Positions 1-56,583 of a stretch of 56,583 bases of DNA are shown here, piece by piece. How positions within the stretch are numbered: the first letter of the stretch is position 1; each line of letters starts with the position of its first letter. Made by a program: the position numbers and the translations under genes. The notes beneath the pieces are model-generated. The model saw only the letters and a list, made by a program, of their open reading frames with translations, searched no databases and had not been told where the DNA came from. Location: contig JACQMV010000057.1 of NCBI GenBank assembly GCA_016203395.1, positions 1-56,583 of the forward strand, written 5' to 3'. Origin of the DNA: Candidatus Woesearchaeota archaeon. GTDB taxonomy: Archaea > Nanobdellota > Nanobdellia > Woesearchaeales > ARS49.

Positions 1-158
1 GTTTACTTAATAGCAATTGATGCATGGATACACCCGTACTATCTTGACTATTACAACATCCTCATAGGAGGACCAAAAAACGTACAAGAAAAAAACCTCC
101 TGGAATTCAACTGGTTCGGAGAAGGAAAAAAAGAACTTGTTGAATGGATAAACAAAAA
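1..158 (+). repeat. Near-identical 158-bp segment shared by two GT-C paralogs (copy 1)
   Basis: Bases 1-158 match 4453-4610 with 2 mismatches (84/4536 and 108/4560), both synonymous third-codon positions. Similarity drops sharply after base 158. Confidence 0.9.
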
Positions 159-591
159 TACCCTGCCGCAAGCAGTAGTAGCAACAAAATGGAACCCGAG
201 CCACGACCTTGTTGGTTGGAGAAACGATATCATAGAACTCCCACTATTAGAATCTGAATTCGTAGGAAACCCAGAATATCTCGCAATAAACCACAGATAC
301 ATACAATATGATGCATCAAAAGACAAGCATGCGCTCAATATGGCAAATTATACCCTAATAAAAGAAATAAAAGCAGGAGGAGGAACACTCGGGCAAGTAT
401 ACAAAGAAAAAAACGAAGGAAAAAGAACACCACAAACAGTGGCAATAAAAGTGTGCGATACAAGAAGCGGCCAATGCCAGAACCTACGACAAAAAGAGCT
501 ATCACAAGCACTGGCAAGAACAGAAACCAAAGATTATAAGTACCTTAATTTTACTTTATTAATCGGAAGAATCATATCACAATCTTCTTAA
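1..591 (+). CDS. GT-C fold glycosyltransferase (PMT_2/ArnT-like), C-terminal fragment; 5' end outside window
   Basis: Frame 1 is open from base 1 to the stop at 589-591. The translation VYLIAIDAWIHPYYLDYYNILIGGPKNVQEKNLLEFNWFGEGKKELVEWINKN... is colinear with the last ~135 aa of the 547-aa protein at 3223..4866. Confidence 0.7.
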   Translation, partial: VYLIAIDAWIHPYYLDYYNILIGGPKNVQEKNLLEFNWFGEGKKELVEWINKNTLPQAVVATKWNPSHDLVGWRNDIIELPLLESEFVGNPEYLAINHRYIQYDASKDKHALNMANYTLIKEIKAGGGTLGQVYKEKNEGKRTPQTVAIKVCDTRSGQCQNLRQKELSQALARTETKDYKYLNFTLLIGRIISQSS

Positions 592-6743: not shown

Positions 6744-7613
6744 TCAGCTCGCCTCAAAAACCGGCCTCTCCGTATAACCAGAACGATCCAACCTAACAAA
6801 CTTAAAAGACTTTCCAAGATCTTCCATCCATTTTATTGTGCTAATCATTGAATCGCGAGCCAAACAACCAAGCAAAACAGCAGCACCATCACCATTCATG
6901 TCTTTCTTGTCACAATAGTGATCAACAATGAAAGCAGGCAGGTTATCAATGTCAACAAGATAGAACCCGCCATCACTTTTTATTTTTAACGAATCAAAAC
7001 CCACTTTCGCCTCTGCCAAAAAACCAACCATGCCTGAAAAGTCAGGAGCGCGAGAAGTATGAATTGTGGTAACCCCTTTAATTTCAACAGCATCCTGTTC
7101 AAGCCCAAGCTCAGCCATCAATTTCTGATAAGCCGATGCCTTAAAATCCATGCCATTATCATTCATGACAAGACCTGCTGCAGAACAATCTATCATCCCA
7201 CGCACGTGAGTGACGTTTGGAGAACGCCTGCATGCAAGAATCTGATTGCCGAACTTCAGCGCAACACCAACCGCACCAACACGCATACTGTTGTACGTAT
7301 TTACGCTTAATCTTTCATCAAGCGAACAAGCATATGATGACGTAACTGCATAATACGTTTTAAAATCACAGGGCCTGAACTTCAACACATTATTCGCATA
7401 CCACAAACAACCTAAGCCACCTTGCACAGAAAAAACCTTATCTTTGCGCTCTGCCTTGAGTTTATGCCAAAACTTTTCAATTACGATTTTTTCGCGCTCA
7501 CTCAAGCAAGCAGAAAAATCATCACCATCAACACTTATAGAAATATTCTCATAACAATATGGAGAATCAAACAAACCAAAAAAACCAATATCAAAATTCA
7601 TACAATCCTCCAT
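6744..7613 (-). CDS. Hypothetical protein, possibly degenerate Nudix fold
   Basis: 289 aa. The segment ACRRSPNVTHVRGMIDCSAAG...ASAYQKLMAELGLE resembles a decayed Nudix box. Its architecture parallels 11790..12743. Confidence 0.4.
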   Translation of the reverse strand: MEDCMNFDIGFFGLFDSPYCYENISISVDGDDFSACLSEREKIVIEKFWHKLKAERKDKVFSVQGGLGCLWYANNVLKFRPCDFKTYYAVTSSYACSLDERLSVNTYNSMRVGAVGVALKFGNQILACRRSPNVTHVRGMIDCSAAGLVMNDNGMDFKASAYQKLMAELGLEQDAVEIKGVTTIHTSRAPDFSGMVGFLAEAKVGFDSLKIKSDGGFYLVDIDNLPAFIVDHYCDKKDMNGDGAAVLLGCLARDSMISTIKWMEDLGKSFKFVRLDRSGYTERPVFEAS

Positions 7614-9892
7614 TCAGGAGCAGGAATCACGAACTGAAGACCTTTACTCCGGTACTCTTCATTATTACGAATAATCTCATCAGCAAAATTCCAGGCGAGC
7701 ACAAAAGCATACTCAGGAAGCTCACTTTTCCAAGACTCCTTATTTCTAACAGGAATTCTGACACCTGGAACGGTTTTGCCATGCTTTAACGGATTATCCT
7801 CAACAATGTAAGCAATATCATCATTAGTTATACCATAAAAATTAAGAAACGTCGTGGCTTTTGCAGGAGCACCATAACCAACAATCTTCTTCCCATCATT
7901 CTTTACAGCATCAAAAAATCCCTTAACATGACGCTTCATCTCCATAAGCTTACGAGCAAACTCCTCAAATGTTGAAAACTTATCAAGGCCAGCATGTCTT
8001 TCTTTCATAATAAACTCATCAACAGAAGAATGTTGAGGATAAAAACCCGCTTTCTGAACAAAAACACGCAATGAGCCGCCGTGCGTATCAACATGCTCAA
8101 CCATGAAAACATTCATGTCCTGCCTTTTGAAAAACTCCTGCAAGGAAAGCACACAAAAATAAGACAAATGCTCATGATAAATATTATCAAAAGAAAGCCG
8201 CAATACTGTATCTAAAAGATACTGAACTTCAATAATCAAAACACCATTGTCCTTCAACAAATTCTTAACGTTTCTGGCAACCTCTTTGATATTACCAATG
8301 TGTGCAAAAACATTATTGGCAGTAATCACATCTGCCTTGCCCTGCAAAGAACAAATACTATTAACAATATCATCATTAAAAAATCCACAAAATGTTTCTA
8401 CACCATTACTTCTTGAAATTTCACAAATATTAGACGCTGGCTCAACTCCAACTACGCGAATTCTTTTTTCCTTGAACTTCTTAAGAAGAAAGCCGTCATT
8501 ACTCCCGATATCAACAACCAATGATTTGTCATTAAGCCCTAAAAAACCTGAAACAGAATCGGCCATTTCTGAAAAATGCCTCCGGAACGTTTCAGTAGTT
8601 GATGAAACATACAAGTAATTAGAGAACATCTTTTCAGGAGCAACAACATACGAAAGCTGGCAAAGAAAACACTTTTCGCAAAACATCAGCTCAAGAGGAA
8701 AACTCTCTTCCTTGCGATGGAGCTCATTTTCAGATAAAAGTGCATTTGCCAAAGGAGTGTTACCAAGAGAAATAACATTACGAAGAGAATCACTGCCGCA
8801 AATCCTGCACTTTTTCTGAAACCCATAATTTTCCTGCTCTTTCAATGCTTCTTCAGTCCAGCGAATAAACCGCTGCAAACCCTTGACAAGCCCTACTTTT
8901 GGGAAATAACCAATCACTGTTCTTATTTTAGTAAGATCAGGACAGCGCCTACTAACATCTGCCTTGGAATATGCTTCATTAGGACCAACAACCTGATGAA
9001 CAACACTATTCTCGTTTTTCACAAGACCTGAAACAATCTCAGCCAAGTGGCGCATTTCAATCTCTTGCTCATCACTGCCAATATTGAAAACCTCCCGGTT
9101 ATACTTAGACAGAAGAACCTGAAAAAAGCCAGTGATAGCATCAGTAACATAGCACCATGTTCTAGTATTTCTGCCATCCCCATACACAGGAATCTTCTCA
9201 CCCTTAAGCGCAGCAACAACAAAATTAATCGCACCACGACCATCATCCAAACGCATACCCGGACCATAAATGTTAAACGGACGCACTATCTTAACAGGAA
9301 TCCCAAAATTAAGAGAATACGTCATGCATAATGTTTCACCAATCCTTTTTGGCTCATCATAAGCAGCCCTAGGACCTATACAAGACACATTGCCATTATA
9401 CGTTTCAGGCGTTGGAATAAACTTAGAATCAGGATTACCATACACTTCACTTGTGCTGAAAAACAAAAAACTCTTAACATTCTTAACCCTTGCCAGCTCA
9501 AGCAAGTTCTTCGTACCTAAAAAACCAACATCAATAGTTTCTAAAGGAAACTTACTGTAAAACAACGGAGCAGCAATACTCGCAGCATGAAAAATAAAAT
9601 CAACACCGCCCTCAATATTAACCGGCTTTGAAATATCCTGCTCAATAACCGAAGTGTTCTCGTCCTCTTCAATAATCCCTTTTAACCCAGTAATGAAATT
9701 ATCAAGAACAATAATCCTACACGGCTTTTCAAGCACAAACTTGTTCAGATACTGCAAAATCAGAACAAGATACTTGCCAAGAAAACCAGCACCTCCTGTA
9801 ATAAGCACAGCGGTATTATTAAACGCAGCAGTCAAACTGCCTAAATCCTGCGCAATCGTGCGAATATCCTCCTGAATAATCCTACTTACCAT
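7598..9892 (-). CDS. Fusion protein: UXS-like extended SDR (N-terminal) + zinc-ribbon/class I SAM C-methyltransferase (C-terminal, TylC3-like)
   Basis: 764 aa. Residues 1-350 carry ITGGAGFLGKYL, STSEVYG and YDEPKRIGE. Residues ~360-764 carry CRICGS...CEKCFLCQL (Cys4), VVDIGSNDGFLL (SAM motif I), ANNVFAHI and HEHLSYF...THGGSLRVF. The domain junction is near nt 8815. Confidence 0.75.
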   Translation of the reverse strand: MVSRIIQEDIRTIAQDLGSLTAAFNNTAVLITGGAGFLGKYLVLILQYLNKFVLEKPCRIIVLDNFITGLKGIIEEDENTSVIEQDISKPVNIEGGVDFIFHAASIAAPLFYSKFPLETIDVGFLGTKNLLELARVKNVKSFLFFSTSEVYGNPDSKFIPTPETYNGNVSCIGPRAAYDEPKRIGETLCMTYSLNFGIPVKIVRPFNIYGPGMRLDDGRGAINFVVAALKGEKIPVYGDGRNTRTWCYVTDAITGFFQVLLSKYNREVFNIGSDEQEIEMRHLAEIVSGLVKNENSVVHQVVGPNEAYSKADVSRRCPDLTKIRTVIGYFPKVGLVKGLQRFIRWTEEALKEQENYGFQKKCRICGSDSLRNVISLGNTPLANALLSENELHRKEESFPLELMFCEKCFLCQLSYVVAPEKMFSNYLYVSSTTETFRRHFSEMADSVSGFLGLNDKSLVVDIGSNDGFLLKKFKEKRIRVVGVEPASNICEISRSNGVETFCGFFNDDIVNSICSLQGKADVITANNVFAHIGNIKEVARNVKNLLKDNGVLIIEVQYLLDTVLRLSFDNIYHEHLSYFCVLSLQEFFKRQDMNVFMVEHVDTHGGSLRVFVQKAGFYPQHSSVDEFIMKERHAGLDKFSTFEEFARKLMEMKRHVKGFFDAVKNDGKKIVGYGAPAKATTFLNFYGITNDDIAYIVEDNPLKHGKTVPGVRIPVRNKESWKSELPEYAFVLAWNFADEIIRNNEEYRSKGLQFVIPAPEWRIV

Positions 9893-10355: not shown

Positions 10356-10410
10356 ACTGCACTATAAGAATATCAAAGACAGTATTCGTCCATGCTCAAA
10401 ATCCTCTGAA

Positions 10411-10990
10411 CAAATGAAATATTTGCCTTGCAGCCCTTGCTAATTCTTATCTTAAACGAGGTTATAACTTATCAGCGGCCTTGCTAATTATCTTAAATGA
10501 GCACATAATTTATCAGCAGCCCTTGCGCTCTGACTGCTGGTTTAACGCAATTAGCAATTTTATTGACAAAAGCAATACCCTTTGTTGCAGCCGATTGCAA
10601 ACACAACGCAAACAAAAGGTAAGGGCTTGGTGTGACAACAAAACAAGAGCTTTCAAACTACTCATCAAGCCACAAGGGCTGTAGAAAAATAATAACCTCT
10701 TCTTTGGTAAGTAGTGGCAGGTGCAAGCAAATGGTAAGGCAAGTATGACGACAAGAAAAGACACGTTCAAATCATGAGCCAAGCCACAAGTGCTGCAGAA
10801 ACGTAGCATCATCTTACACTTTTATCTTTTTTATGAATAGCTGTAGAAAAATAACAACACCTTCTTTGATATGTGTCAGCAGGTGCGAGAAAAGAACAAA
10901 ACATTCTTTTATACGGATTAACTGCTGGGGAAATGACTATGGCGGCGGAGACAAACATCTGAAAATTAATATACGCTGCTATAGTTGCGT
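10411..10990 (+). repeat. Modular repeat, copy A (U-U-core-T'-halfcore-T-H; composite)
   Basis: The U units start at ~10431 and ~10477. The core is 10517-10681, bounded by CAGCCCTTGCG / CACAAGGGCTG. A second partial core plus tail follows at 10682-10900. Hairpin H is 10937-10984. Confidence 0.9.
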
Positions 10991-18340: not shown

Positions 18341-18347
18341 TATATAA
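18341..18347 (-). promoter_or_regulatory. Candidate TATA box for 17969..18316 (leaderless-type spacing)
   Basis: TTATATA on the minus strand, centred ~28 nt upstream of the ATG at 18316 and immediately next to hairpin H of repeat copy B. Confidence 0.4.
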
Positions 18348-18360
18348 CCCTTGCTAAAAA

Positions 18361-18670
18361 TACACGATAGTGGCGGAGGCAGGTATCTGAGAATTAATGT
18401 TCGCTGTTATAATTAAGTAAGTTAGTCTTAAATGTGGCTATACTTTATCAGCAGTTCAGGATAATCCTTATCTTAAATGCGGTCATAATTTATTAACAGG
18501 TCATGCGCTCTGACTGTGAGTTTTAACGCAATTAGCAGTTTTATTGACAGGAGCAATACAATTTGTTGCAAATAATTGCAAACACGATGCAAACACATGG
18601 TACGGGCTTGATGTGACAACAAAACAAGAAACCGAATCAGGAGTCAAGCCACGAGCGTTGCGGAAAAATA
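18361..18670 (+). repeat. Modular repeat, copy B (H-U-U-core; diverged)
   Basis: Hairpin H is 18365-18412, the two U units are 18413-18498, and the core is ~18497-18662. The terminal inverted repeat is decayed in this copy. Confidence 0.85.
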
Positions 18671-18762
18671 TCTGCACAAGCTACATTGCTTATGAATATT
18701 ATTAGCAGACGCTTGGAAAGAGAGGCATATTCCTTGGTAGTTTTTAATCAAGCACGAGTAGA

Positions 18763-19173
18763 TTGACAGCGCAAATGTTCCTGAAAGTTTATATACTAAA
18801 CGCATCTTTTAGACTGATGAGTGATTACAAACGCTTTAGGGTTAATTTAACTACAGGAATTATGTGGGGGGTTATTTCGTATACTTTTTTTACCAGTATG
18901 GGACTGGTTAGTTCATTGAGGCGAAATTCATTGCAGAATGTCACAATACTTAATCAAGCAATACAGATATATAAGTATCAGTGCGAGAATACAGCAAAAG
19001 ATAAAACTATTAGGCAGCTGCGTGAAGAAATGTTGCGGAAGGATCAGATTATTGAGAATTTTAGGGATAATCAAAACAATGCCGGTCAAGAGTCTCAGAA
19101 TTTTGTGGATGATCCGTGCGTTATTAATCCTCTTAATCTGAACCCTCTGCGCAGTATTGATGATAAAATCTGA
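18763..19173 (+). CDS. Hypothetical protein with one hydrophobic segment
   Basis: 136-aa ORF opening with TTG; ATG alternatives at 18775 and 18817. Has a TM-like GIMWGVISYTFFTSMGLV followed by a polar tail. Confidence 0.3.
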   Translation: MTAQMFLKVYILNASFRLMSDYKRFRVNLTTGIMWGVISYTFFTSMGLVSSLRRNSLQNVTILNQAIQIYKYQCENTAKDKTIRQLREEMLRKDQIIENFRDNQNNAGQESQNFVDDPCVINPLNLNPLRSIDDKI

Positions 19174-19214
19174 ATACCGTCATCTTTTTAAATAAGGACA
19201 GTGCTTGTTTTGTG

Positions 19215-19895
19215 ATGAAGCTTTCAATAATAATTCCTTGCTACAATGAGGAACTCACGATAAAAGAAGTTATTTCTCTTGTAGAAAAAGTGGTTTTGCC
19301 TGTGGAAAAGGAGATTATTATTGTTGATGATGGAAGCACTGACAGGTCTAGAGATATTCTTACTAAGATTAAGGGGCATAAGATTTTCTTTCATGAAAAG
19401 AACCAAGGTAAGGGTGCTGCTGTGAGAACAGGCATTATGCACGCTAATGGAGAGATTATTGTTATTCAGGATGCTGATTTGGAATATGATCCCTCTGATT
19501 TTCAGATAATGCTTCAGCCGATTTTAGAAGGGAGAACTGATGTTGTGTTTGGCTCTCGTTTTAAGAATCCTGCACATCACCCTCGTCATTGGTTTTATTA
19601 TCTTGGGAATATCGGGCTTACATTATTCACTAATTTGCTATTTTTTTCAAAAGTGTCTGATATGGAGACGTGTTATAAAATGTTCAGAAAGAATGTTCTT
19701 GAGCACGTGCCTTTGAGGGCGCGTGGTTTTGATCTTGAGCCAGAGCTTACTGCAAAGATTCTCAAGTATGGTCATAAGATTGTTGAGGTTCCTATAAAGT
19801 ATAACTCCAGAAGTGTTGATGAAGGTAAAAAGATTACTTGGAGGGATGGTGTTAAGGCAGCATGGTATCTTCTGAAATACCGTTTCACAAACTAG
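19215..19895 (+). CDS. Glycosyltransferase family 2
   Basis: Has KLSIIIPCYNEELTI, IIVDDGSTDRS and QDADLEYDP. Confidence 0.85.
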   Translation: MKLSIIIPCYNEELTIKEVISLVEKVVLPVEKEIIIVDDGSTDRSRDILTKIKGHKIFFHEKNQGKGAAVRTGIMHANGEIIVIQDADLEYDPSDFQIMLQPILEGRTDVVFGSRFKNPAHHPRHWFYYLGNIGLTLFTNLLFFSKVSDMETCYKMFRKNVLEHVPLRARGFDLEPELTAKILKYGHKIVEVPIKYNSRSVDEGKKITWRDGVKAAWYLLKYRFTN

Positions 19896-20578
19896 CAGTT
19901 GTGTGTGCAACGTATAATGAAGCTGATAATATTACTGAGCTTGTCAAGCAGGTTCTTGTATTTCCTTGTCATTTGGTTGTTGTTGATGACAATAGTCCTG
20001 ATGGAACTTCCACAATAATTTCTGCTCTTCAAAAAGGTTTTAAGAACCTTCATTTGATAAAGCGGGCAGGCAAGCTTGGCTATGGCAGCGCGTATGTTGA
20101 GGGTTTTAGATATGCATTAAATGTTTTGAAGGCAGATTTTGTTGTTAGTATTGATGCTGATTTGTCCCATGAGCCGGGTGTTATTCCTGAGCTCGCGCGT
20201 AAAGCGCAGAATTTTGATGTGGTTATTGGTTCCCGCTACGTGTCTGGTGGTGGTACTTCATGGACTTTGCACAGAAAGTTGATGAGTTTTAGCGCGAATT
20301 TTCTTGCAAGGTTGTTTCTCGGTATTCCTGCACATGACATGACTTCTGGCTATCGTTGTTATAGTGCAAAAGTCATTCGTGCCATTGATTTCTCTGCTGT
20401 AAAGAGTGATGGCTATAGCTTTTTGCAGGAGATTCTTTACAGGGTTCACAAGCAGGGTTTTTCTATTGCTGAAGTTCCTATTTTTTTCAGAGACAGAAGA
20501 GAAGGTAAATCAAAGCTTTCTAAAAAAGAGATTTTTAATTTTTTCAGGAATCTTGTCAGGTTAAGGTTTGGCTATTGA
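19862..20578 (+). CDS. Polyprenyl/dolichyl-phosphate mannose synthase-type GT2
   Basis: 238 aa. Has VVCATYNEADNI, VVVDDNSPDGTS, IDADLSHEP and SGYRCY, the Dpm1/Ppm1-like pattern. Confidence 0.8.
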   Translation: MVSSEIPFHKLAVVCATYNEADNITELVKQVLVFPCHLVVVDDNSPDGTSTIISALQKGFKNLHLIKRAGKLGYGSAYVEGFRYALNVLKADFVVSIDADLSHEPGVIPELARKAQNFDVVIGSRYVSGGGTSWTLHRKLMSFSANFLARLFLGIPAHDMTSGYRCYSAKVIRAIDFSAVKSDGYSFLQEILYRVHKQGFSIAEVPIFFRDRREGKSKLSKKEIFNFFRNLVRLRFGY

Positions 20579-20583
20579 TGTTG

Positions 20584-21294
20584 CTATGTCTCGTATTCTG
20601 ATGCAATCTCGCGTAACTCATCAACCACTTTTCCAACATTCGCTTTACTGAGTTTACGATATCGTGCTAATACTGAATTTATCTCTTCTGCTTTTCTTAA
20701 AATGGTGCAATTAGGATCATCCCGCGCATATATTACTCCGGGAAATGTCCAGTAAATCCCCCATTCTGAGGTTCTTATTCCATTCTCAACTTCCCATGCA
20801 AGCTGTAATGCCATTTCCTTGTGTGTCGGAGGAGAGTAATCAGAAAACGCCCATAAGTTGTGTGATGTTCTAAAAAATCCGAACCAGTAATCGCAGTCGT
20901 TCACAACTTGACCTCTTGGCTCTATGTACCGGTGTGTTTCCAATGCCTCAACTGCTTCTTTCATACGTAACACTAGCTTTTTATTCTCTTCACAGAATCT
21001 CGGTAGTGAAACCTGTCTAAACCCTGCATGTGTTGTTTCATATTGGTCAATCACCGCGTGAATGATGCCATCTTCGTTAAGGTGTCTCAAATTGAGGGTA
21101 GGTCCTGTGCTGTCATCAGTTAGGCGCATCATCAACTGCGCTCCGTAGTATTCTGCAGCAGTTTGCGATAAATGTCCGTGATACACGGGTTTCATTCCTT
21201 CAGGTGGATGTTCTATTATTACATCAACAGCTACTTGTCTTACTTCTTGAAACAGCTTTTTCTCATCCCATGACAACCTGAATTTTGCATTCAT
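20584..21294 (-). CDS. Hypothetical protein
   Basis: 236-aa ORF with non-repetitive composition. No motif recognised. Confidence 0.45.
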   Translation of the reverse strand: MNAKFRLSWDEKKLFQEVRQVAVDVIIEHPPEGMKPVYHGHLSQTAAEYYGAQLMMRLTDDSTGPTLNLRHLNEDGIIHAVIDQYETTHAGFRQVSLPRFCEENKKLVLRMKEAVEALETHRYIEPRGQVVNDCDYWFGFFRTSHNLWAFSDYSPPTHKEMALQLAWEVENGIRTSEWGIYWTFPGVIYARDDPNCTILRKAEEINSVLARYRKLSKANVGKVVDELREIASEYET

Positions 21295-21384
21295 CCGCTG
21301 CTTATTTTATGTTTGAATTATAAAGGTTGCTATTAACTGCGCAGTTCATTTTCATGTTATCCTGTTATTTTACTTTGGCTTCCC

Positions 21385-21712
21385 TCTATTTTGTTGTTTC
21401 TGTGCAACTCTGTTAAAAATTCTCTAGTTAGATGCCCTAAAAAGAATAAGAGTATAAGATAATAATACTTTCCGCAGCTCTTGTGGCTTGGCCCGTAATT
21501 TGAACGCTTCTTGTTTTGTTGTCACACTAAGCCCTTACCATGTGCTTGCGTTATGTTTGCAACCCGGCTGCAACAAAGGGTATTGCTCATGACAATAAAA
21601 CAGTTAATTGCGTTAAAGTTCATCGTCAGAGCACAAGGGCTGCTGATAAATTATGACCTCATTTAAGATAAGAATTAGAAGGATCCTCGGGGGCAAATGC
21701 AAAATCATTTAA
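21385..21712 (-). repeat. Modular repeat, copy C (U-core-degenerate T)
   Basis: The core is 21475-21642. Bases 21511-21675 match 23881-24045 (copy D) with a single mismatch. The 21475-21510 end instead resembles copy E. Confidence 0.9.
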
Positions 21713-21798
21713 GGTATGTTCTGGCAGGGGAAAGTATTTCAATAGAAAAGCTGTTCGGTTATTAAGTTTGTTTTGTACAGGATGGCTTTTTATATTGC

Positions 21799-23649
21799 TT
21801 GTTCTTGGCTTGTCGTATGCAGCTCTCTCACAGGAATATTTCTTATGCTATTGTAATACTTGCGTCTATTCTTTCTGTTATCTCAGTTTTGCCTTTGTTT
21901 AATTCAGGTATTCCTATGAACATTGATTCTCCTTGTCATTATCTTCGTTCATGGTGTGTTGCTAATGTTGATTCTTCGGTTCCTAACAACTGGTGCAATT
22001 TTTGGCAGGCAGGAGTTCCTGTTTCTCAGTATTATTATCCCCTGGTTGATTTTTTGACAGCGTTTATTGGTAAATTTATTGGTTTAGTGCTTTCGTATAA
22101 GCTATTTCTTGTGTTGACTTTGTTTGCTCAGCCAGTTGGTGCCTATGTTTTGTTGCGTTCTCTTGGCCATGAGCTTGCAGCGGGTTTTGCTTTCGCTTTG
22201 CTTGTTCTTAATCCCGGTAGTTGGCATTTTGCCGGTTTTGAAGAAGTGTTCTTAGTCGGGCTTTCACCGTATGTGTTGTCAATTGGTTTTTGGCTTTTGG
22301 GCATGGCTTCGTTTTTGTATTTTCTTCGCAGCCCTTCGTTTAAGTCATTAGTTCTTGCAGTAATTCCTACTTTGTTTATTACTCATCCTATGACTCTTAT
22401 TTTTGCTGCTGTTTCTTATGTTTTTTTGGCAGTTGTGCATTACAAGCAGTTGTTGGCTCACAGGAAACTAGTTTTTCTTTTTGCGTTTTCTGTTTTGATT
22501 ATTAATGCGTATTATATTATTCCTTTTTTGCTTAAGCTAGAGTTGTTTCCCAGAGCGATTGGCGGCTGGATTGACTGGAATGATTTTTTGGCTTATGTTT
22601 GGTCAAGAGTTCCATTTTTGTTGTGGGTTTTTGCTTTTGCAGGATTATTATTCATGAACAAGCAACTGCGTTTTCTATCAGTTTTGGTTGGTTTTTGGAC
22701 AATTGTTAATCTTCTGCCAAGGCAGTCATGGCATGATTATTTGATTGGTATTCGTTTTGGTGCGATTCTTGCACCGTTTGTTTTTATTTCTGCTTCAGTA
22801 GTGTTTGAGCGGCTTGCGAAAATCAGAAAGTACGCTCCTTTGTTTTTGCTTGTTTCGTTGCTGGTTTTTACTCCTTTTGTTTGGAAGTTTTTTTCCAAAT
22901 CAAGAGATCTTGGAAAAAGCATTCTTTTGTCAGAGCATGAAGTGTTTTCCAGCCAAAAAGAGGCGTATAAGTTCCTTTCATTAAAAGAAGGCAGGGTTTT
23001 GGCTGAGGAAACGTTGTATAATGCAAATGACGCCCGGGCGTTTACTCACAGTAATTGTATTTTGCCTGTTGTTTCAGGAAAGGAGCTTATTGGTTCTGGT
23101 CTTATTCTTTTCCCAAGAAATAGAACAGTGATGGATATTGGCATTAGTAGCATGGCTAAGAATTTGTTTCATAGACCTTTTTCAGATTATAATGTTTCAG
23201 ATGTTTTAGAAATTTTGCAGGATTACAATATTAGATGGATTGTTGTTCATACTAATGTCTGGTTTGATTATTTCAAGAATTTTGCAATTGCTCAGTATGG
23301 TTTTGGTTCTGTGGGCGTCCTTGAAATGCCTGTTAATAACTCTTGGTTTAAAGCTAATGGGCAGATATTAAGCGAGAAATATGAGGGTATGAAAGCTGAA
23401 GCTGCTGTTGTGCTTAATAATTCTTCGCAGGTTATTTTAAAAACACATTATTACCCTAATTGGAAGGCATTTGTTGATAATTTGCCAGTTAAGTCATTTG
23501 ATTGTAATGGTTTGTTGTGTGCGCAAGTTCCTGCCGGGTCTCATTCAGTTTTGTTTGTTTATAAGACGCAATTCTCAGAATGGCTCGGCTACTTGTTGTC
23601 CCTATTAGGCATTGTTCTCATAGGTTGGTTGTGGAGAAAGCCACAATAA
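21799..23649 (+). CDS. Polytopic membrane protein, GT-C/YfhO-like candidate glycosyltransferase
   Basis: 616 aa, with many hydrophobic helices and then a soluble C-terminal domain containing HYYPNWKAFVDN. Same architecture as 27450..29162. Opens with TTG; the first ATG is at 21817. Confidence 0.5.
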   Translation: MFLACRMQLSHRNISYAIVILASILSVISVLPLFNSGIPMNIDSPCHYLRSWCVANVDSSVPNNWCNFWQAGVPVSQYYYPLVDFLTAFIGKFIGLVLSYKLFLVLTLFAQPVGAYVLLRSLGHELAAGFAFALLVLNPGSWHFAGFEEVFLVGLSPYVLSIGFWLLGMASFLYFLRSPSFKSLVLAVIPTLFITHPMTLIFAAVSYVFLAVVHYKQLLAHRKLVFLFAFSVLIINAYYIIPFLLKLELFPRAIGGWIDWNDFLAYVWSRVPFLLWVFAFAGLLFMNKQLRFLSVLVGFWTIVNLLPRQSWHDYLIGIRFGAILAPFVFISASVVFERLAKIRKYAPLFLLVSLLVFTPFVWKFFSKSRDLGKSILLSEHEVFSSQKEAYKFLSLKEGRVLAEETLYNANDARAFTHSNCILPVVSGKELIGSGLILFPRNRTVMDIGISSMAKNLFHRPFSDYNVSDVLEILQDYNIRWIVVHTNVWFDYFKNFAIAQYGFGSVGVLEMPVNNSWFKANGQILSEKYEGMKAEAAVVLNNSSQVILKTHYYPNWKAFVDNLPVKSFDCNGLLCAQVPAGSHSVLFVYKTQFSEWLGYLLSLLGIVLIGWLWRKPQ

Positions 23650-23681
23650 ACTACAAACAGAAAGCCAAGGTTAATTATGGC

Positions 23682-23721
23682 GGAAGAATTTAATAACCAT
23701 ATAAAAATGGTAAATTCTTCC
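23682..23721 (+). terminator. Perfect 11-bp-stem hairpin downstream of 21799..23649
   Basis: GGAAGAATTTA (23682-23692) pairs with TAAATTCTTCC (23711-23721), leaving an 18-nt loop. It starts 33 nt after the stop codon. A terminator role is inferred only from position. Confidence 0.3.
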
Positions 23722-23725
23722 TCAT

Positions 23726-24160
23726 ATAACAAACGAAACATATGCGAAAATTTACTTCGTTTGCTATAGTAAAGAATAAGTAGGTGCGAAAATATCCCGC
23801 CACTCTTGCTAATACCTGTCAAAGAAGGTGTTGTTATTTCCTAGCAGCCCTTGTGGCTTGATGAGTAGTTTGAAGATATTTTGTTTTGTTGTCACACTAA
23901 GCCCTTACCATGTGCTTGCGTTGTGTTTGCAACCCGGCTGCAACAAAGGGTATTGCTCATGACAATAAAACAGTTAATTGCGTTAAAGTTCATCGTCAGA
24001 GCACAAGGGCTGCTGATAAATTATGACCTCATTTAAGATAAGAATCATCCCGAACTGCTGATAAAGTATAGCCACATTTAAGACCAACTTACTTAATTAT
24101 AACAACAAACATTAATTCTCGGATATCTACCTCCGCTGCTATAGTGTATTTTTAGAAAGG
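23726..24160 (-). repeat. Modular repeat, copy D (full H-U-U-core-T-H)
   Basis: Hairpin H is 24097-24144 and the U units are 24010-24095. The core is 23845-24012 with a perfect 11-bp inverted repeat (23845-23855 / 24002-24012). The T tail is ~23790-23844, and a second H-type hairpin is at 23726-23770. Confidence 0.9.
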
Positions 24161-24169
24161 GCAAACAAT

Positions 24170-30890: not shown

Positions 30891-33800
30891 TTATCGCACT
30901 TTCTCAACTCTGACACGGAAATACAGCGTTTTATTAGCCAGAGGATGCTGAGACGGGTCTAAACCGTAACCTTGCTCAGCCAAAACCTCAATAGTCCGCT
31001 CATCACTCTCTTTCATACCAGCAATACCTTTACTAAACCCGTCAATAAAACCTGCTTTACCATACACAAAATCAACAGGCGAGCCATTTACGAAATCAGA
31101 ACTCGGAGTGACATTACTATCTTTAATAGTGCTATCAAACACTGTTTTATCTGGCTCTGTCCAGCCAATATAGTTCAGCCGAACTCTCGCACCATTCTCA
31201 ATAACTGAGTGAGGAACAAAATCAGAAAGCAATGTGGTGTTTTTTCCTTCCCAATCCACTTTGTACGTATAAATCGGTTGGCCATTAAGCTCTTTCTCAA
31301 CCTTGAAAAACTTATAATACTTCAATCCATGCGCCTGACCAAAGAACAAACGCACAAAAATACTTTTGTGCACAGGAATGTTGGCCAAAATTGCTTGAAG
31401 ATTGCCGTCCTCTTTAGGAAGAATTGCAATACCTGCATCAATAATCCCCTCAGGGTATTCTTTTGAAACAACCTTACCTTCCCTGTTAATATACGATACA
31501 GACTTTACAAGCCCCGGACCCTGATTAGTTGGAACAAATGCTTTATCACCCTCTAAGAAAATACCATTGCCACACTCAACTCTTGAGCCATTTCTGAAAG
31601 AACAGGAAGAAGAGCCACCACTGAAAGAAGGCCAAGGAGCAATCCAACTATTAGCGTCACTCTCAGAAGCAATAGAATTAACCTCCGCATACCTTTGGCG
31701 TGCAATATCATCACTATAATTATATCTCTCTTTCATATAAGCAATTGCATCATCCTTCGGCAGTTTCTTAACATTAACCCACAAATCAGCCCTTTCAAAA
31801 TTCCATGAACCAAAATGCGCCCAAACACCGCCCTTACCAATCATATCATTACTAGCAATAACAAACGCTTCAGGGGGCTCGCAATGCGTAAACCCGAGGA
31901 CTTCTTTAATCTGCGAATCATTAAACAGACTGGCTTTCAAAATGCGTGCAGCTTCCTCTTTATTAGAAACGGTCAAAGAATTTATTATTTTGATAGATGC
32001 AGGAGTGAAATTAATAACCTCATTAACCTTTTCAAATGCCTGATTGCCACCACAATCCAGCATTCTAAGAATGCCAATACTTTCTTCTTCATCCTCAGTC
32101 AAAAACAACTTTCCAACCCAATGAGCCATCGGCGTATTCTGCCAAGCACCATCAAAAGTAACAGGGCGGTCAGCAACATACTTAAAATGATGACCATAAT
32201 CCCACCAGCTCGTAATAATCGCATTAGCCATACTTGATTCCCTAATCTCAACAAGTGTGTTATACCACGCATCATTCATAATAGGAACATCATTTCTTGA
32301 AAGCCCATAAGAACTACCTACTGTGCTGCTCATGGAAAGAGCGAACAACACAAATATAATCAGCGTAGTTATCCATTTCTTAATCCCAAAATTCTTCAAA
32401 CAGAAATCCCCAATAACCTTTACCAACAGCCCGGCAGAAATACCGAACGCAATAGCAAATGGCGGAACCATCATCATAACAAAACGAACACCCTTTGTAG
32501 TAGCATACATTGCTGCAAAAAACCAAATAGCCAAAAATATAGAATAGCCTGCTTCGCGATGATTATGCTCATCACGCATGAACAAACAAAGACCAATCCC
32601 GATTAAAGACAACAACAACAGATAATTCCCGAACTGGCGAACGACATCCTTAAGCGAAATAGGATTAAGCTCGGCAACAGTTGTATAAACATTCGGCCAA
32701 AGATTTGAAGCAGACGCTTCCTTAATCATAGTAAATCCGAACGGCGCAAAAGGCGCATCCAAAAAGCCAGAAACCCTGCCCTGAAACAAAGAAACAAAAA
32801 TTGCTGAAACAACAACAAGAACAATACCATATAAGACGGCATTCTTAAGCCGGGAATCAACAAGTATGCCTGATAATTTACTGCCTTTAATCACCTGATA
32901 AACCACGGCAAGAACGATTAACGCAATAATTGCAACACCTGCAACAACAAACTTCTCAACAAACAAGCCAATTAATAATACTAGCGCTAAAATGCCAACA
33001 AGCCATCTCATATCAGATAAAAACGCACGCCAACTGGAAAATAACCCGAGAGCATACAAAATCCTAATAATTGCGTAAACCCCGAAAGTAGCAAGAATAA
33101 AATCAAAAATATACCACCAGCCACCCCAAGCAATAGAATAAAGCCCAATAACAAAACCACAAATTCCTGCAAACGCCCACTGTTTACTTTTTTCTTTCTC
33201 ATGAAAGCCCGCCAAGAACAAAAATGAAATCAGCATCGGAAACAAAATATTGTAAGCATCAGTATCGGCATGCCCCCACAACGTTCTGCCAATAACTGCA
33301 GGATGAAGCCCGAGCATAGCAACAGCAAAAAAACCACCAATCCATCCGCCATAACGACTGGCTAAAAAGTAAGCAGGAATGAATGACAAAAACATAAGCA
33401 CAACAGGAAGATAATTTGCACTCTCCATCAAAGGAACCTTTCTGAACAAAGAAACAATCTTGTGAAAGTAAGCAATAACATAAGGATGCAAGTCATGAGG
33501 ATCGGTAGTAGAACCGCGAGGAGCAATAACATGGTCGTCCCACTGCTTTCCATCTTTTATCCGATCACCAAGAATTCCTTTATCAAGATAATTCCTTGCC
33601 AACCGAATATAATTATACGGGTCAATGTCCGGCATGTAAGTATAAGTCTTGCCATCTTCAGTATACTCAAAATGTGACTTGAACTGGTTTGTAATCTGGT
33701 CTGTTTGCTGAGCAATCAAATCCTTCTGAGAACTCATAATCTCATCCAAATTGTCATCAACAAGCTGTTTCTTCCTGTCATCAGGAAGATTCGGATACTG

Positions 33801-34208
33801 CTGGTTAATCTGATCAACAACCTGATTCCTATAAAAATCATTCACAGCATTCCTTGCCCAATCAAGAGTAGGTGGAAGCGAAGCACCCTGCAAGCTAGTC
33901 CATGTTGCCCCCCACGGGCAATGAAGCTTTCCAACACAAGGAAAGAAGTTGGAATTAGGAACAAACTGCAAAAGCATAATCAAAAGAAAAACCAGAACTG
34001 TTTTGTATTTCAGCACAAACTGCTTTATAACCCCAAAATCAAAAGAGATATCTTCTGGTGAGGAAGAATTACTTTTTAAACCGGGCATGTCAGAATTCTC
34101 AGAAGAAGAACTCCTGCGTCCAGAACTGAAAAATCCTTTTATCTTATTCCACAACTTGCCAAAATCAATAGTAATATCGTCCTCTGCCACAATACTGAGG
34201 AAGAGCAA
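30891..34208 (-). CDS. aglB: Archaeal oligosaccharyltransferase AglB (STT3 family) with C-terminal FKBP-type peptidyl-prolyl isomerase domain
   Basis: 1105 aa. Has the first-loop acidic motif MPDIDPYNYIRLAR, multiple TM helices and the catalytic WWDYG (ITSWWDYGHHF). The last ~100 aa (nt ~30894-31202) read VRLNYIGW..KTVFDST...FVYGKAGFIDGFSKGIAGMKESDERTIEV..EQGYG...TLYFRVRVEKV, an FKBP_C pattern. Confidence 0.85.
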   Translation of the reverse strand: MLFLSIVAEDDITIDFGKLWNKIKGFFSSGRRSSSSENSDMPGLKSNSSSPEDISFDFGVIKQFVLKYKTVLVFLLIMLLQFVPNSNFFPCVGKLHCPWGATWTSLQGASLPPTLDWARNAVNDFYRNQVVDQINQQYPNLPDDRKKQLVDDNLDEIMSSQKDLIAQQTDQITNQFKSHFEYTEDGKTYTYMPDIDPYNYIRLARNYLDKGILGDRIKDGKQWDDHVIAPRGSTTDPHDLHPYVIAYFHKIVSLFRKVPLMESANYLPVVLMFLSFIPAYFLASRYGGWIGGFFAVAMLGLHPAVIGRTLWGHADTDAYNILFPMLISFLFLAGFHEKEKSKQWAFAGICGFVIGLYSIAWGGWWYIFDFILATFGVYAIIRILYALGLFSSWRAFLSDMRWLVGILALVLLIGLFVEKFVVAGVAIIALIVLAVVYQVIKGSKLSGILVDSRLKNAVLYGIVLVVVSAIFVSLFQGRVSGFLDAPFAPFGFTMIKEASASNLWPNVYTTVAELNPISLKDVVRQFGNYLLLLSLIGIGLCLFMRDEHNHREAGYSIFLAIWFFAAMYATTKGVRFVMMMVPPFAIAFGISAGLLVKVIGDFCLKNFGIKKWITTLIIFVLFALSMSSTVGSSYGLSRNDVPIMNDAWYNTLVEIRESSMANAIITSWWDYGHHFKYVADRPVTFDGAWQNTPMAHWVGKLFLTEDEEESIGILRMLDCGGNQAFEKVNEVINFTPASIKIINSLTVSNKEEAARILKASLFNDSQIKEVLGFTHCEPPEAFVIASNDMIGKGGVWAHFGSWNFERADLWVNVKKLPKDDAIAYMKERYNYSDDIARQRYAEVNSIASESDANSWIAPWPSFSGGSSSCSFRNGSRVECGNGIFLEGDKAFVPTNQGPGLVKSVSYINREGKVVSKEYPEGIIDAGIAILPKEDGNLQAILANIPVHKSIFVRLFFGQAHGLKYYKFFKVEKELNGQPIYTYKVDWEGKNTTLLSDFVPHSVIENGARVRLNYIGWTEPDKTVFDSTIKDSNVTPSSDFVNGSPVDFVYGKAGFIDGFSKGIAGMKESDERTIEVLAEQGYGLDPSQHPLANKTLYFRVRVEKVR

Positions 34209-50641: not shown

Positions 50642-50682
50642 GAACTTCAGATGTATTAGTCCTTAATATGCATCATGCACAA

Positions 50683-50739
50683 AAGTCCAGTGGCATTTCA
50701 ACAGATGAAAGAATTACGGAAATGTCTAGTGGTAATAAC
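50683..50739 (-). repeat. 57-bp direct repeat flanking toxin cassette (copy 1)
   Basis: AAGTCCAGTGGCATTTCAACAGATGAAAGAATTACGGAAATGTCTAGTGGTAATAAC matches 51467-51523 with 2 mismatches. It contains an internal imperfect hairpin (GGCATTTC / GAAATGTC). Confidence 0.9.
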
Positions 50740-52633: not shown

Positions 52634-52689
52634 ATCAACTGATTCAATACGCACCAATCGTCCTGCTAGAAATTATCTGAGCAAATGAG

Positions 52690-53146
52690 CCATTTGCCTT
52701 GCAACTCTGGCTAACTCTTATCTTAAATGAGCACATAATTTATCAGCAGCTCTTGCTAATTCTTATCTTAAATGAGCACATAATTTATCAGCAGCCATTG
52801 TGCTCTGATTGTAAACTTTAATGTGCTCAACTGTTTATTTGTCATGAGCAATACCATTTGTTGCAGCCGGTTGCAAACACAGTGCAAGCAAAAGGTAAGG
52901 GCTTGGTGTGACAACAAAACAAGAAGCGTTCAAATCATGAGCCAAGCCACAAGTGCTGCAGAAACGTAGCATCATCTTACACTCTTATCCTTTTTATGAA
53001 GGGATGTAGAAAAATAACAACATCTTCTTTGATATGTATCAGCAGGTGCGAGAAAAGAACAAAACATACTTTTATACGTATTAACCGCTGTGGAAATAAC
53101 TATAGCGGCGGAGACAAACACCTGAAAATTAATATACGCGGCTATA
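52690..53146 (+). repeat. Modular repeat, copy E (U-U-core-T-H)
   Basis: The two 45-bp U units start at 52711 and 52756 (42/45 identical). The core is 52792-52958, followed by the tail. Hairpin H is 53100-53146. Confidence 0.9.
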
Positions 53147-53181
53147 CCATGATTCTTGCGCGGTATTGGCTTGTTAATCAT
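52972..53181 (-). CDS. Candidate small protein (69 aa) encoded inside the T-H tail of repeat copy E
   Basis: Its ATG (53181-53179) overlaps the TGA (53180-53178) of 53178..53756 as ATGA. It shares 57 codons with 10809..11045, with substitutions concentrated at third positions. Confidence 0.35.
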   Translation of the reverse strand: MINKPIPRKNHGIAAYINFQVFVSAAIVISTAVNTYKSMFCSFLAPADTYQRRCCYFSTSLHKKDKSVR

Positions 53182-56271: not shown

Positions 56272-56470
56272 AATCTACTTAATGAGCGTTCTTTTCTTCC
56301 CCTTGCTAAAAAGTCCTTATTAATGCAATTAGACATTTCATTGACAGGAGCAATACTATTTGTCGCAACCTGTTGCAGAAGGTTGCAAACACAATGCAAG
56401 CAAAAGGCAATGGCTAAGTGCAACGAAAAGATGATATACTTTCAAATCATGAGTCAAGCCACTAGAGCTG
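56272..56470 (+). repeat. Modular repeat, copy F (degenerate U + divergent core)
   Basis: Has ...CCCCTTGCTAAAAAGTCC..TTAATGCAATTAGAC...GGTTGCAAACACAATGCAAGCAAAAGG...CAAGCCACTAGAGCTG. It is colinear with the other cores but has indels. Confidence 0.75.
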
Positions 56471-56583
56471 CTAAAAAAGAAAGGTGATTGAGTACTTTTC
56501 GGACCAAAAAAGCTTATAATTAAGCAAAACTACGACGATATTGATGAATCAAGTAATGTCAAACATGTATTTCGCAGGTAGAA

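What the first reader, a model, noticed from the sequence alone, without database searches (positions are those of the whole stretch)
23726..24160. Full-length copy of a modular, hairpin-bounded repeat (H-U-U-core-T-H) that recurs six times in the window
I read all copies in one common 'forward' sense. That is the + strand for A (10411-10990), B (18361-18670), E (52690-53146) and F (56272-56470), and the - strand for C (21385-21712) and D (23726-24160).

In that sense, every copy is built from the same ordered modules:
- H is a ~48-bp hairpin whose stem base is CTATAGC...GYTATAG.
- U is 2-3 abutting ~45-bp units, consensus CTAATTCTTATCTTAAATGAGCACATAATTTATCAGCAGCCCTTG.
- The core is 165-168 bp, bounded by the 11-bp inverted repeat CAGCCCTTGTG...CACAAGGGCTG. 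The repeat is perfect in D (23845-23855 / 24002-24012).
- T is a ~50-bp tail, TAGAAAAATAACAACACCTTCTTTGATATGTGTCAGCAGGTGCGAGAAAAG.
- A second H follows.

D carries the complete series. A and E have U-U-core-T-H, B has H-U-U-core, C has U-core plus a decayed T, and F is a divergent U-core. Each U unit ends in CAGCAGCCCTTG, so each carries its own copy of the left arm of the core inverted repeat.

No transposase, integrase, RT or cas-like ORF is nearby. I do not recognise the element as any described archaeal repeat class.
Basis: seen in the sequence. Interest (0 to 1): 0.8.

Follow-up and report, generated by a model that had tools for sequence, protein, structure and literature searches.

The report
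Mosaic intergenic repeat in a Woesearchaeote
A non-coding, modular repeat of 200-600 bp fills six gaps between genes in the surface-sugar gene island of a tiny groundwater archaeon; it looks like a parasitic, recombining MITE- or BOX-like element that has broken up and rearranged an ancestral operon, which is useful to know but is not a new kind of system.

Summary
Six copies plus one internal partial duplicate share a ~165-nt core (nhmmer E 1e-48 to 1e-71). All are intergenic and non-coding, and none matches Rfam. No transposase, integrase, RT or Cas gene lies in the window.

The element is a mosaic:
- 45-nt U units, each carrying a TATA-like CTTAAAT 25 nt before the core
- an imperfectly palindromic core
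- a T tail
- strand-specific H hairpins

Only copy D is hairpin-bounded. The core inverted repeat is degenerate in B and absent in F.

The only outside copy is in a different Woesearchaeota MAG (GC 47% against 38%), at a non-syntenic site, yet its core is 82-88% identical. That points to mobility or strong constraint.

Relatives carry the same glycosylation genes as one compact co-directional operon without the element. In the window, the 5.4 kb between inverted copies B and D is flipped relative to that order. An independent assembly also follows a different path exactly at D's terminal hairpin.

Best reading: a lineage-restricted, MITE/BOX/BIME-like interspersed repeat that recombines and probably donates promoter and terminator signals. 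The palindrome shows no covariation, so an RNA function is unproven. Interest is moderate; this is a new member of a known kind.

The parts
23726..24161 (-). Copy D, the most complete copy. Read on the - strand: left-end motif CCCTTTCTAAAAAT (24161-24148), H hairpin (24143-24098), U' (~24090-24046), U (~24045-24004), core (24012-23845), T (~23844-23795), spacer, H' hairpin (23768-23725).
23845..24012 (-). Core of D: a 168-nt imperfect palindrome bounded by a perfect 13-bp inverted repeat, AGCAGCCCTTGTG / CACAAGGGCTGCT.
   Evidence: fold z -7.4 on the + strand, -3.6 on the - strand
10385..10990 (+). Copy A: U0-U-U, core (10517-10681), T, a partial second core (10721-10814), X, a second T, Y, H (10938-10983). 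It lies between the divergent genes cupin157 (-) and the NTP-transferase gene (+).
18348..18680 (+). Copy B: left-end motif, H (~18367-18411), U', U, and a core (18497-18660) with degraded inverted-repeat arms. There is no T. It lies between g123 (-) and g136 (+). Its left 223 nt form an 87%-complementary inverted repeat with D 23939-24161.
   Evidence: (I1)
21385..21712 (-). Copy C: one U, core (21475-21642), X module containing a T5 run, and a decayed tail. It is 94% identical to D over 202 nt and is a direct repeat of D, with g616 between them.
   Evidence: (D3)
52656..53150 (+). Copy E: U0-U-U (period 45, 94% matches), core (52792-52958), X, T, Y, H (53101-53146). It lies between convergent genes.
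56272..56481 (+). Copy F, divergent: one decayed U, the left-end motif, and the 3' three-quarters of the core with a 10-bp palindromic insertion at the apex. It lacks the left inverted-repeat arm. The contig ends 100 bp later.
18681..23725 (.). The segment between inverted copies B and D (g136, GT2_227, GT2_238, g236, copy C, g616). Its orientation is reversed relative to the gene order conserved in related contigs.
   Evidence: (I1)
23660..23705 (+). An 11-bp perfect-stem hairpin (GGAAGAATTTA...TAAATTCTTCC) directly after the g616 stop codon. It is outside the element and probably acts as the g616 terminator.
   Evidence: read from the sequence

Best explanation
The element is a lineage-restricted, non-coding, composite interspersed repeat of Woesearchaeota (DPANN archaea). 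It is the archaeal counterpart of BOX/BIME/MITE-type elements: non-autonomous selfish DNA that has colonised the gaps between genes of an N-glycosylation / surface-polysaccharide island.

**Shown.**
- Each copy is a mosaic of modules: ~45-nt U-type units, a ~165-nt imperfect palindrome, a T tail and H hairpins.
- The modules are shuffled between copies. D combines a B-like H-U' part (91% identical), a C-like U-core part (94%) and a T module shared with A, E and the outside copy.
- The element occurs at non-homologous sites in two unrelated-looking genomes.
- Related gene clusters lack it.

**Inferred: recombination.** Copies recombine with each other.
- Recombination between the inverted copies B and D flipped 5.4 kb of an ancestrally co-directional operon.
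- Recombination inside hairpin H' produced an alternative junction seen in a second assembly.

**Inferred: transcription.** Each U unit carries a TATA-box-like CTTAAAT, matching the local promoter motif. It sits 25 nt upstream of the left arm of the palindrome.
- In A, C and E this transcript probably ends at a T5 run ~35 nt past the right arm.
- In B it probably reads on into the next gene, and in the outside copy towards the downstream tRNA gene, giving a portable promoter plus structured leader.
For: **Multi-copy, intergenic, both orientations, non-coding.**
- Copy number and placement.
- Indels between copies break every reading frame.
- A six-frame ORF query found no called protein among 5.8 billion.

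**Modular and mosaic structure** with tandem 45-nt units.

**Restricted distribution.**
- One hit in 185,579 species genomes.
- None in the JGI metagenomes, IMG/VR, phages or plasmids.

**The outside copy (L002).**
- GC 46.7% and tetranucleotide r 0.65 to the window, so a different organism.
- It sits between tRNA-His and a giant ORF, with no synteny to the window.
- Its core is 82-88% identical to the window copies, inside their own 77-94% range.

**Relatives lack the element.**
- L005-L010 carry g616, GT2_227, GT2_221, DUF2304 and the GT9 genes as tightly packed, same-strand neighbours.
- nhmmer finds no element in them.
- In the window, g616 (+) and GT2_221 (-) are on opposite strands, and the breakpoints coincide with the 223-nt inverted pair B/D (I1).

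**Alternative junction.** Logan contig L012 is 100% identical to the window over ~2.07 kb, carries 3 SNPs that all lie inside H', then diverges completely at the hairpin foot.

**Assembly breaks.** Short-read contigs break inside copies.

**Promoter signal.**
- The local TATA motif clusters at -24 to -34 from start codons.
- It recurs in every U, on the forward strand only, exactly 25 nt before the core inverted repeat.

**Precedent.** BOX elements have this same modular form (PMC3049150), and a Woesearchaeal genome is MITE-dense (PMC11602168).
Against: - No target-site duplications at the core or at the composite boundaries (read).
- No transposase in 56 kb, and no partner IS could be looked for in the rest of the genome.
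- No clean empty site. The relatives are only 35-60% identical in protein, and the Logan variant differs in its downstream genes as well, so it is a rearrangement, not an insertion/deletion.
- All seven cores keep the same orientation relative to U and T.
- The inversion rests on one assembly. The only independent assembly breaks inside the repeats and disagrees with the window at H', so a chimeric join cannot be excluded.
- 82-88% identity across genomes could also reflect purifying selection on a function.
- Promoter and terminator roles are inferred from motifs only.
Confidence: 0.55

Rival explanations
1. A family of stand-alone small RNA genes. U is the promoter, and the ~165-200-nt core is a structured regulatory RNA transcribed in the forward sense (or in the reverse sense as a rod-like hairpin).
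For: - A TATA-like box sits 25 nt before the core in every U.
- A T5 run follows the core in A, C and E.
- Long invariant sequence blocks are shared with a copy in another genome.
- D, C and A fold far better than shuffles.
- 91% of cells pair in the rod model, against 28-53% when the partners are slid.
Against: - Fold stability is not conserved: B, F and the outside copy have z between -1.4 and +0.8.
- Covariation is not above shuffled controls (79-202 of 500 shuffles reach the observed values), and the covariation energy term is unfavourable.
- The core folds better in the reverse sense, while the H hairpins and the TATA orientation favour the forward sense.
- No Rfam match.
- F lacks the 5' quarter of the core.
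Confidence: 0.15
2. Cis-regulatory DNA. The copies are shared operator/enhancer modules, bound by one transcription factor, that co-regulate the glycosylation operons.
For: - A, B, C and the outside copy lie in divergent promoter regions within 8-90 nt of start codons.
- The most conserved block holds GTTGCA-type repeats at 10-11-bp spacing, and F's 10-bp insertion adds a third.
- U units are phased at 45 nt.
Against: - D and E lie between convergent 3' ends, where no promoter is needed.
- The outside copy sits next to a tRNA gene and a giant ORF, not glycosylation genes.
- Related clusters run the same genes without the element.
- 300-600 bp is very large for an operator.
Confidence: 0.12
3. 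Programmed site-specific recombination sites. The hairpins or the core inverted repeat are substrates of an unlinked recombinase that inverts or swaps glycosylation gene cassettes, giving surface phase variation.
For: - Copies partition the island into cassettes: A-7.4 kb-B-2.7 kb-C-2.1 kb-D, and E-3.1 kb-F.
- The B-D segment is inverted relative to relatives.
- C and D are 94%-identical direct repeats around a single gene.
- An alternative junction falls exactly at the foot of hairpin H'.
Against: - No recombinase in the window.
- B and D are only 87% identical, so the inversion looks old rather than ongoing.
- All cores have one orientation relative to their flanks.
- Ordinary homologous recombination between repeats explains the same facts.
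Confidence: 0.1
4. A non-autonomous derivative of an IS200/IS605-type element (PATE-like), moved as single-stranded DNA by a Y1 transposase that recognises the H hairpins.
For: - D carries related hairpins at both ends, in the same orientation on the same strand.
- H folds well on one strand only, through G·T pairs.
- There are no target-site duplications.
- The breakpoint in L012 and the right boundaries of A and E fall at the hairpin foot.
Against: - Only one of seven copies has both hairpins.
- No TnpA or TnpB in the window.
- No conserved target tetranucleotide could be separated from the element's own end motif.
- A scan for the H motif in IMG/VR gave only a chance hit inside a gene.
Confidence: 0.08

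Closest known systems
BOX elements of Streptococcus pneumoniae / S. suis (boxA - n x boxB - boxC)
   Same: - A composite intergenic repeat in which a variable number of tandem ~45-nt subunits sits between other modules.
- It forms stem-loops if transcribed.
- No transposase of its own.
- Modules are lost or duplicated between copies.
- It can raise or lower expression of neighbouring genes, and is regarded as parasitic, MITE-like DNA (PMC3049150).
   Different: - No sequence relationship, and the host is an archaeon.
- The large central module here is itself a 165-nt palindrome.
- The tandem units lie outside it, not between the two inverted ends.
- Each unit carries an archaeal TATA-like box.
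MITEs (for example Correia elements and archaeal Sulfolobus MITEs)
   Same: Small, AT-rich, non-coding, multi-copy and intergenic. The core has 9-13-bp terminal inverted repeats and is strongly self-complementary. Copies promote rearrangements. The element is found in more than one genome at different sites.
   Different: No target-site duplications and no identifiable partner IS. The inverted-repeat-bounded core never occurs without its U module, so the mobile unit (if there is one) is larger and has no terminal inverted repeats.
REP / BIME elements with RAYT transposases, and IS200/IS605-derived PATEs
   Same: Short strand-specific hairpins (H) with a conserved foot, combined with other motifs into mosaics. 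Boundaries and one rearrangement breakpoint lie at the hairpin foot. No target-site duplication.
   Different: To my knowledge, RAYT/REP systems are described in bacteria only. No Y1 transposase is visible here, and the hairpins are ~46 nt with a large conserved loop.
Invertible promoters (invertons) of Bacteroides capsule loci
   Same: A ~170-bp segment bounded by short inverted repeats, next to promoters of surface-glycan operons.
   Different: All seven cores have the same orientation relative to their flanks. There is no recombinase gene nearby. The TATA-like boxes lie outside the inverted-repeat-bounded segment, not inside it.

Membership tests
MITE | Terminal inverted repeats | tested here: inconclusive
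   The core has inverted-repeat arms matching at 13/13 (D), 10/11 (A, C), 9/11 (E) and 8/11 (outside copy). They are degraded in B and the left arm is missing in F. The whole composite element has no terminal inverted repeats.
MITE | Target-site duplication flanking each copy | tested here: not met
   No direct repeat flanks either the core or the composite boundaries in any copy (read).
MITE | Small, non-coding, multi-copy, intergenic | tested here: met
   No conserved reading frame.
MITE | Partner IS / transposase with matching ends in the same genome | not testable with these tools
   None in the 56-kb window.
MITE | Presence/absence polymorphism (empty sites) | tested here: inconclusive
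   Homologous clusters in relatives lack the element, but they are distant (35-60% aa identity). Logan contig L012 departs from the window at D's hairpin H' but continues into different genes.
BOX/BIME-type composite interspersed repeat (a kind, not a homologous family) | Ordered modules with a variable number of tandem subunits, and modules missing or duplicated between copies | tested here: met
   1-3 U units of 41-45 nt. Modules H, U', X, T and Y are each present in only some copies. A has a partial core duplication.
BOX/BIME-type composite interspersed repeat (a kind, not a homologous family) | Stem-loop-forming, and located between genes or operons | tested here: met
   Fold strength varies widely between copies.
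IS200/IS605-derived PATE | Subterminal hairpins at both ends, on the same strand and in the same orientation | tested here: inconclusive
   True for D only (H and H'). A and E have H only at the right end, and B only at the left.
IS200/IS605-derived PATE | Y1 (TnpA) transposase or TnpB in the genome | not testable with these tools
   None in the window.
Any Rfam RNA family | Covariance-model score at or above the gathering threshold | tested here: not met
   No hit in the whole window. In E-value mode, copies D and A give only chance-level hits (E 0.36-9.3, 11-21 bits against cut-offs of 38-100).
Integron attC site / gene cassette array | R''/R' core sites (RYYYAAC ... GTTRRRY) at the hairpin feet, co-oriented cassettes, and intI nearby | tested here: not met
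   The hairpin feet read CTATAGC...GYTATAG. Flanking genes are divergent or convergent. No integrase is present.
Invertible promoter (inverton) | Both orientations of the inverted-repeat-bounded segment observed, and a recombinase nearby | tested here: not met
   All seven cores are collinear with U and T. No recombinase is present.
Diversity-generating retroelement TR/VR pair | Adenine-specific differences between repeats, a reverse transcriptase nearby, and the VR inside a gene | tested here: not met
   Differences are spread over all bases, with 47-68% transitions. No RT is present, and all copies are intergenic.

The most novel reading that the evidence does not exclude
The element is the cis-acting part of a previously undescribed archaeal cassette-shuffling system. 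Promoter-carrying repeats with a hairpin (H) recombination site bound the glycosylation gene cassettes. An unlinked recombinase then inverts, excises or swaps those cassettes (the B-D inversion, g616 between the direct repeats C and D, the alternative junction at H'), giving DPANN cells phase-variable surface glycans.
Probability: 0.1. Interest if true: 0.7.

Novelty: new member of a known kind. Interest (0 to 1): 0.4.

Why it matters
DPANN archaea have tiny, tightly packed genomes, yet this repeat occupies about 4% of a 56-kb surface-glycosylation island. It sits at every point where the island departs from the compact operon seen in relatives.

If the reading is right, a small parasitic repeat shared between co-occurring Woesearchaeota drives rearrangement of the genes that build the cell surface, and possibly re-wires their transcription. 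The cell surface is the interface these episymbionts use with hosts and viruses.

Practically, the element explains why short-read assemblies of these genomes shatter here. It also warns that contigs spanning the copies may be mis-joined.

Tried and rejected
1. **Protein-coding.** Small ORFs overlap the copies, but indels of 1 nt shift the frames between copies, and stops fall in different places. A concatenated six-frame query found nothing among 5.8 billion proteins.
2. **Known RNA.** Rfam at gathering thresholds and in E-value mode gave nothing. No tRNA genes are present.
3. **Conserved rod-like RNA.** The palindrome is real, but its stability is not conserved and it shows no significant covariation.
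4. **DGR.** Substitutions show no adenine bias, and there is no RT.
5. **attC / integron, inverton, CRISPR.** The defining features are absent.
6. **More copies elsewhere.**
   - Two patterns against the JGI metagenomes, four against IMG/VR, and blastn against phages and plasmids were all empty.
   - One IMG/VR hit to the H motif was a chance match inside a gene.
7. **Small unknown ORFs next to the copies.** g123, g136, g236, g287, g187, g192 and g89 are not related to one another.
8. **Composition skew as evidence for the inversion.** I first read the GC/AT-skew reversal at 19-24 kb this way, then rejected it, because the skew simply follows the coding strand. The inversion argument rests on synteny instead.
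9. **Look-ups that failed.** Three window proteins or hits were not on record. As a result, neither the Logan contig on the g287 side of D nor the 11.8-kb NCBI contig holding the alternative junction could be fetched.

Full report

Yes.
- An nhmmer profile built from the aligned cores finds exactly six full hits, at the stated places and strands (E 5e-48 to 8e-71).
- The 11-bp inverted repeat of D sits at exactly 23845-23855 / 24002-24012 and is really 13 bp long.
- Tandem Repeats Finder confirms the U arrays: period 45 with 94% matches in E, period 41 in A.

The H hairpins fold significantly in A, E and at both ends of D (z -2.9 to -4.2). They do not in B (z +0.35).

- Only D is hairpin-bounded, and its right hairpin H' is a diverged variant.
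- The core inverted repeat matches at 10/11 in A and C and 9/11 in E. It is degraded in B and lacks its left arm in F.
- Every copy with a left end begins with the motif CCCTTGCTAAAAAT, which resembles a U/U junction. X (45 nt) and T also contain U-like stretches, so the element looks like an array of diverged ~45-nt units around a palindrome.

**2. Context**

The window is an archaeal protein-glycosylation / surface island. It encodes:
- an AglB/STT3 fused to an FKBP domain
- three PMT_2 glycosyltransferases
- GT2, GT4 and GT9 enzymes and a Wzx-type flippase
- sugar epimerases and methyltransferases
- large A-rich surface proteins with an archaeal Fn3-like domain

No transposase, integrase, reverse transcriptase, Cas or TnpB gene was found among the 40 ORFs scanned. 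No tRNA gene or Rfam family is present. A protein of the window and an identical-sequence neighbour trace to NCBI records named 'Candidatus Woesearchaeota archaeon'.

All copies are intergenic and fill their gaps almost completely:
- A, B and C lie between divergent genes.
- D and E lie between convergent genes.
- F lies upstream of a minus-strand gene, at the contig end.

Together the copies make up 4.3% of the window.

**3. What it is not**

*Not coding.* Short ORFs overlap the copies, but single-base indels change the frame between copies and stops fall at different places. A concatenated six-frame query found nothing among 5.8 billion predicted proteins.

*Not a known RNA.* Rfam gives nothing at gathering thresholds and only chance-level hits in E-value mode.

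*Not demonstrably a structured RNA.*
- The core is a genuine imperfect palindrome. 91% of cells pair in the rod model, against 28-53% when the partners are slid.
- Fold stability ranges from z -7.4 (D) to +0.8 (F).
- Covariation is no better than shuffled controls (79-202 of 500 shuffles reach the observed values), and the covariation energy term is unfavourable.
- The core folds better in the reverse sense, whereas H and the TATA-like motif favour the forward sense. No single transcript model is supported.

*Not a DGR, attC site, inverton or CRISPR array.*
- Substitutions have no adenine bias.
- The hairpin feet are CTATAGC...GYTATAG, not integron core sites.
- All seven cores keep one orientation relative to U and T.

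**4. Distribution**

A 25-base degenerate pattern from the most conserved block hit one contig among 185,579 species-representative genomes. That contig is JACPBU010000127.1, from a groundwater Candidatus Woesearchaeota MAG. Nothing was found in the JGI metagenomes (two patterns), IMG/VR, or the phage and plasmid collections.

The outside copy has the layout U0-U-core-T. It lies between tRNA-His and the start of a giant ORF (more than 2,400 codons), with no synteny to the window. Its host DNA has 46.7% GC and a tetranucleotide correlation of only 0.65 with the window (38.4% GC), so it is a different organism.

Even so, its core is 82-88% identical to the window's copies, which are 77-94% identical to each other. 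Neutral intergenic DNA would not stay alignable between such genomes. Either the element moves between lineages or it is under strong constraint.

**5. Comparison with related gene clusters**

The 616-aa membrane protein (g616) lies between copies C and D. It has homologues at 35-60% identity on six other contigs.
- GT2_227 is followed directly by g616 on the same strand in L007, L008 and L009. In L006 a 131-aa gene lies between them.
- g616 is followed after 23 nt by the GT2_221 homologue in L005.
- L008 shows one co-directional operon: GT2_227, g616, further genes, GT2_221, DUF2304, GT9, GT9, flippase, GT9. Spacers are minimal.
- nhmmer finds no trace of the element in any of these contigs.

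In the window the same genes are split into pieces, with element copies and small unknown ORFs (g123, g136, g236, g287) at the joints. g616 (+) and GT2_221 (-) face opposite ways. Flipping the 5.4 kb between B and D restores the order and co-directionality seen in the relatives. B and D are the longest inverted repeat in the window (223 nt, 87% complementary, I1).

I infer a repeat-mediated inversion. I had first thought the local reversal of composition skew supported this, but the skew simply follows the coding strand, so I do not use it.

**6. A second rearrangement signal, and a caveat**

Short-read Logan contigs from run SRR12113383 are 99.97-100% identical to the window. They end inside copies, mostly where 31-mers are shared between copies.

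The contig carrying g616 (L012) behaves differently:
- It matches the window perfectly for about 2.07 kb.
- It then shows three substitutions, all inside hairpin H'.
- It then diverges completely, exactly at the hairpin foot (...GTTTGCTATAG|).
- It continues into two membrane-protein genes that are not in the window.
- The first of those genes is identical to a protein on an 11,760-nt NCBI Woesearchaeota contig.

So molecules exist in which g616 is joined, through a different H' copy, to other genes. This is either population-level recombination within the hairpin, or a sign that the window contig is mis-joined at D. Either way, the copies are where the genome (or its assembly) rearranges. The inversion inference carries this caveat.

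**7. How it probably works**

*Mosaicism.* D's H-U' part is 91% identical to B's, and its U-core part is 94% identical to C's. Its T module is shared with A, E and the outside copy, and A contains a half-core duplication. This shows exchange between copies.

*Promoter signal.* In 22 upstream regions of window genes, a TTTAAAT/TTTATATA-type motif clusters at -24 to -34 from the start codon. That is the expected place for an archaeal TATA box on short-leader mRNAs. The same motif (CTTAAAT) occurs once in every U unit, on the forward strand only as scored. The last one lies exactly 25 nt before the left arm of the core in A, B, C, D and E.

I therefore propose that each copy can fire a forward-sense transcript that starts in the left arm of the palindrome.
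- A, C and E have a T5 run about 35 nt beyond the right arm, a plausible archaeal terminator.
- B has none, so its transcript would read on into g136-GT2-GT2.
- In the outside copy the forward sense points towards the downstream tRNA-His gene.

This portable-promoter / structured-leader role is inferred from motifs only.

**8. Verdict**

The best-supported reading (confidence about 0.55) is a lineage-restricted, non-autonomous composite interspersed repeat. It is an archaeal analogue of BOX/BIME/MITE elements. It has invaded a compact glycosylation operon, recombines with its own copies, and probably supplies transcription signals.

It fails the strict MITE test: there are no target-site duplications and no visible partner IS. 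I file it under the kind, not under any family.

Rivals that remain open:
- an sRNA gene family (0.15)
- shared regulatory DNA (0.12)
- programmed recombination sites (0.10)
- an IS200/IS605-type PATE (0.08)

BOX elements provide a close architectural precedent (PMC3049150). A census has already noted a MITE-dense Woesearchaeal genome (PMC11602168). The finding is therefore a new member of a known kind, of moderate interest mainly for DPANN genome plasticity and for the reliability of assemblies in these regions.

Noticed in passing
L012 2122-3001 (Logan SRR12113383_3025105) versus window 23769 onward: An independent assembly of the same population leaves the window exactly at the foot of hairpin H', after 3 SNPs confined to the hairpin. 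It continues into two membrane-protein genes absent from the window. The first is 100% identical to MBI4143853.1 (HY486_01235) on an 11.8-kb Woesearchaeota contig. This is either a structural variant or a mis-join in the window contig.
   Followed up: partly
window 1-324 and 4453-4776: A near-identical direct repeat (158 nt at 99%, then 79-84%) links the window's first bases to the 3' part of the PMT_2 gene at 3223-4866. This suggests a recently duplicated or gene-converted glycosyltransferase paralogue just upstream of the window.
   Followed up: no
window 50657-50739 and 51441-51523: A second, unrelated 83-nt direct repeat (88% identical) lies just upstream of two small unknown genes (starts at 50641 and 51460). 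It may be a duplicated promoter/5' region or a small gene-pair duplication.
   Followed up: no
window 30891-34208 (-): The AglB/STT3 oligosaccharyltransferase (1105 aa) carries a C-terminal FKBP-type peptidyl-prolyl isomerase domain, an unusual fusion.
   Followed up: no
window 7598-9892 (-): A 764-aa fusion of an NAD-dependent sugar epimerase/dehydratase with a C-methyltransferase (Methyltransf_13/14 plus a zinc-binding domain), next to a cupin-like gene and copy A.
   Followed up: no
window 44131-46908 (+), especially 45230-45720: A 925-aa ORF with a long Lys/Glu-rich, low-complexity tandem-repeat region. It is weakly similar (29% over 75 aa) to the giant ORF next to the outside copy in L002.
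   Followed up: no
L002 145-216 (-) and 681-8000 (+): In the other Woesearchaeota MAG the element lies between a tRNA-His gene and the start of an ORF that stays open for more than 7.3 kb, to the end of the fetched locus.
   Followed up: partly
window core apex, e.g. 23925-23950 (D) and 56352-56385 (F): The most conserved block contains GTTGCA-type hexamers spaced 10-11 bp apart. F's exact 10-bp insertion adds a third hexamer and lengthens the apical hairpin. This could be a protein-binding array or simply palindrome growth.
   Followed up: no
window 18341-18347: A TTATATA box lies immediately outside B's left end, 25-31 nt (counting first base to last) before the first in-frame ATG of g123 (M9, at 18316). 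The element end therefore abuts the core promoter of the minus-strand GT2-DUF2304-GT9 operon.
   Followed up: partly
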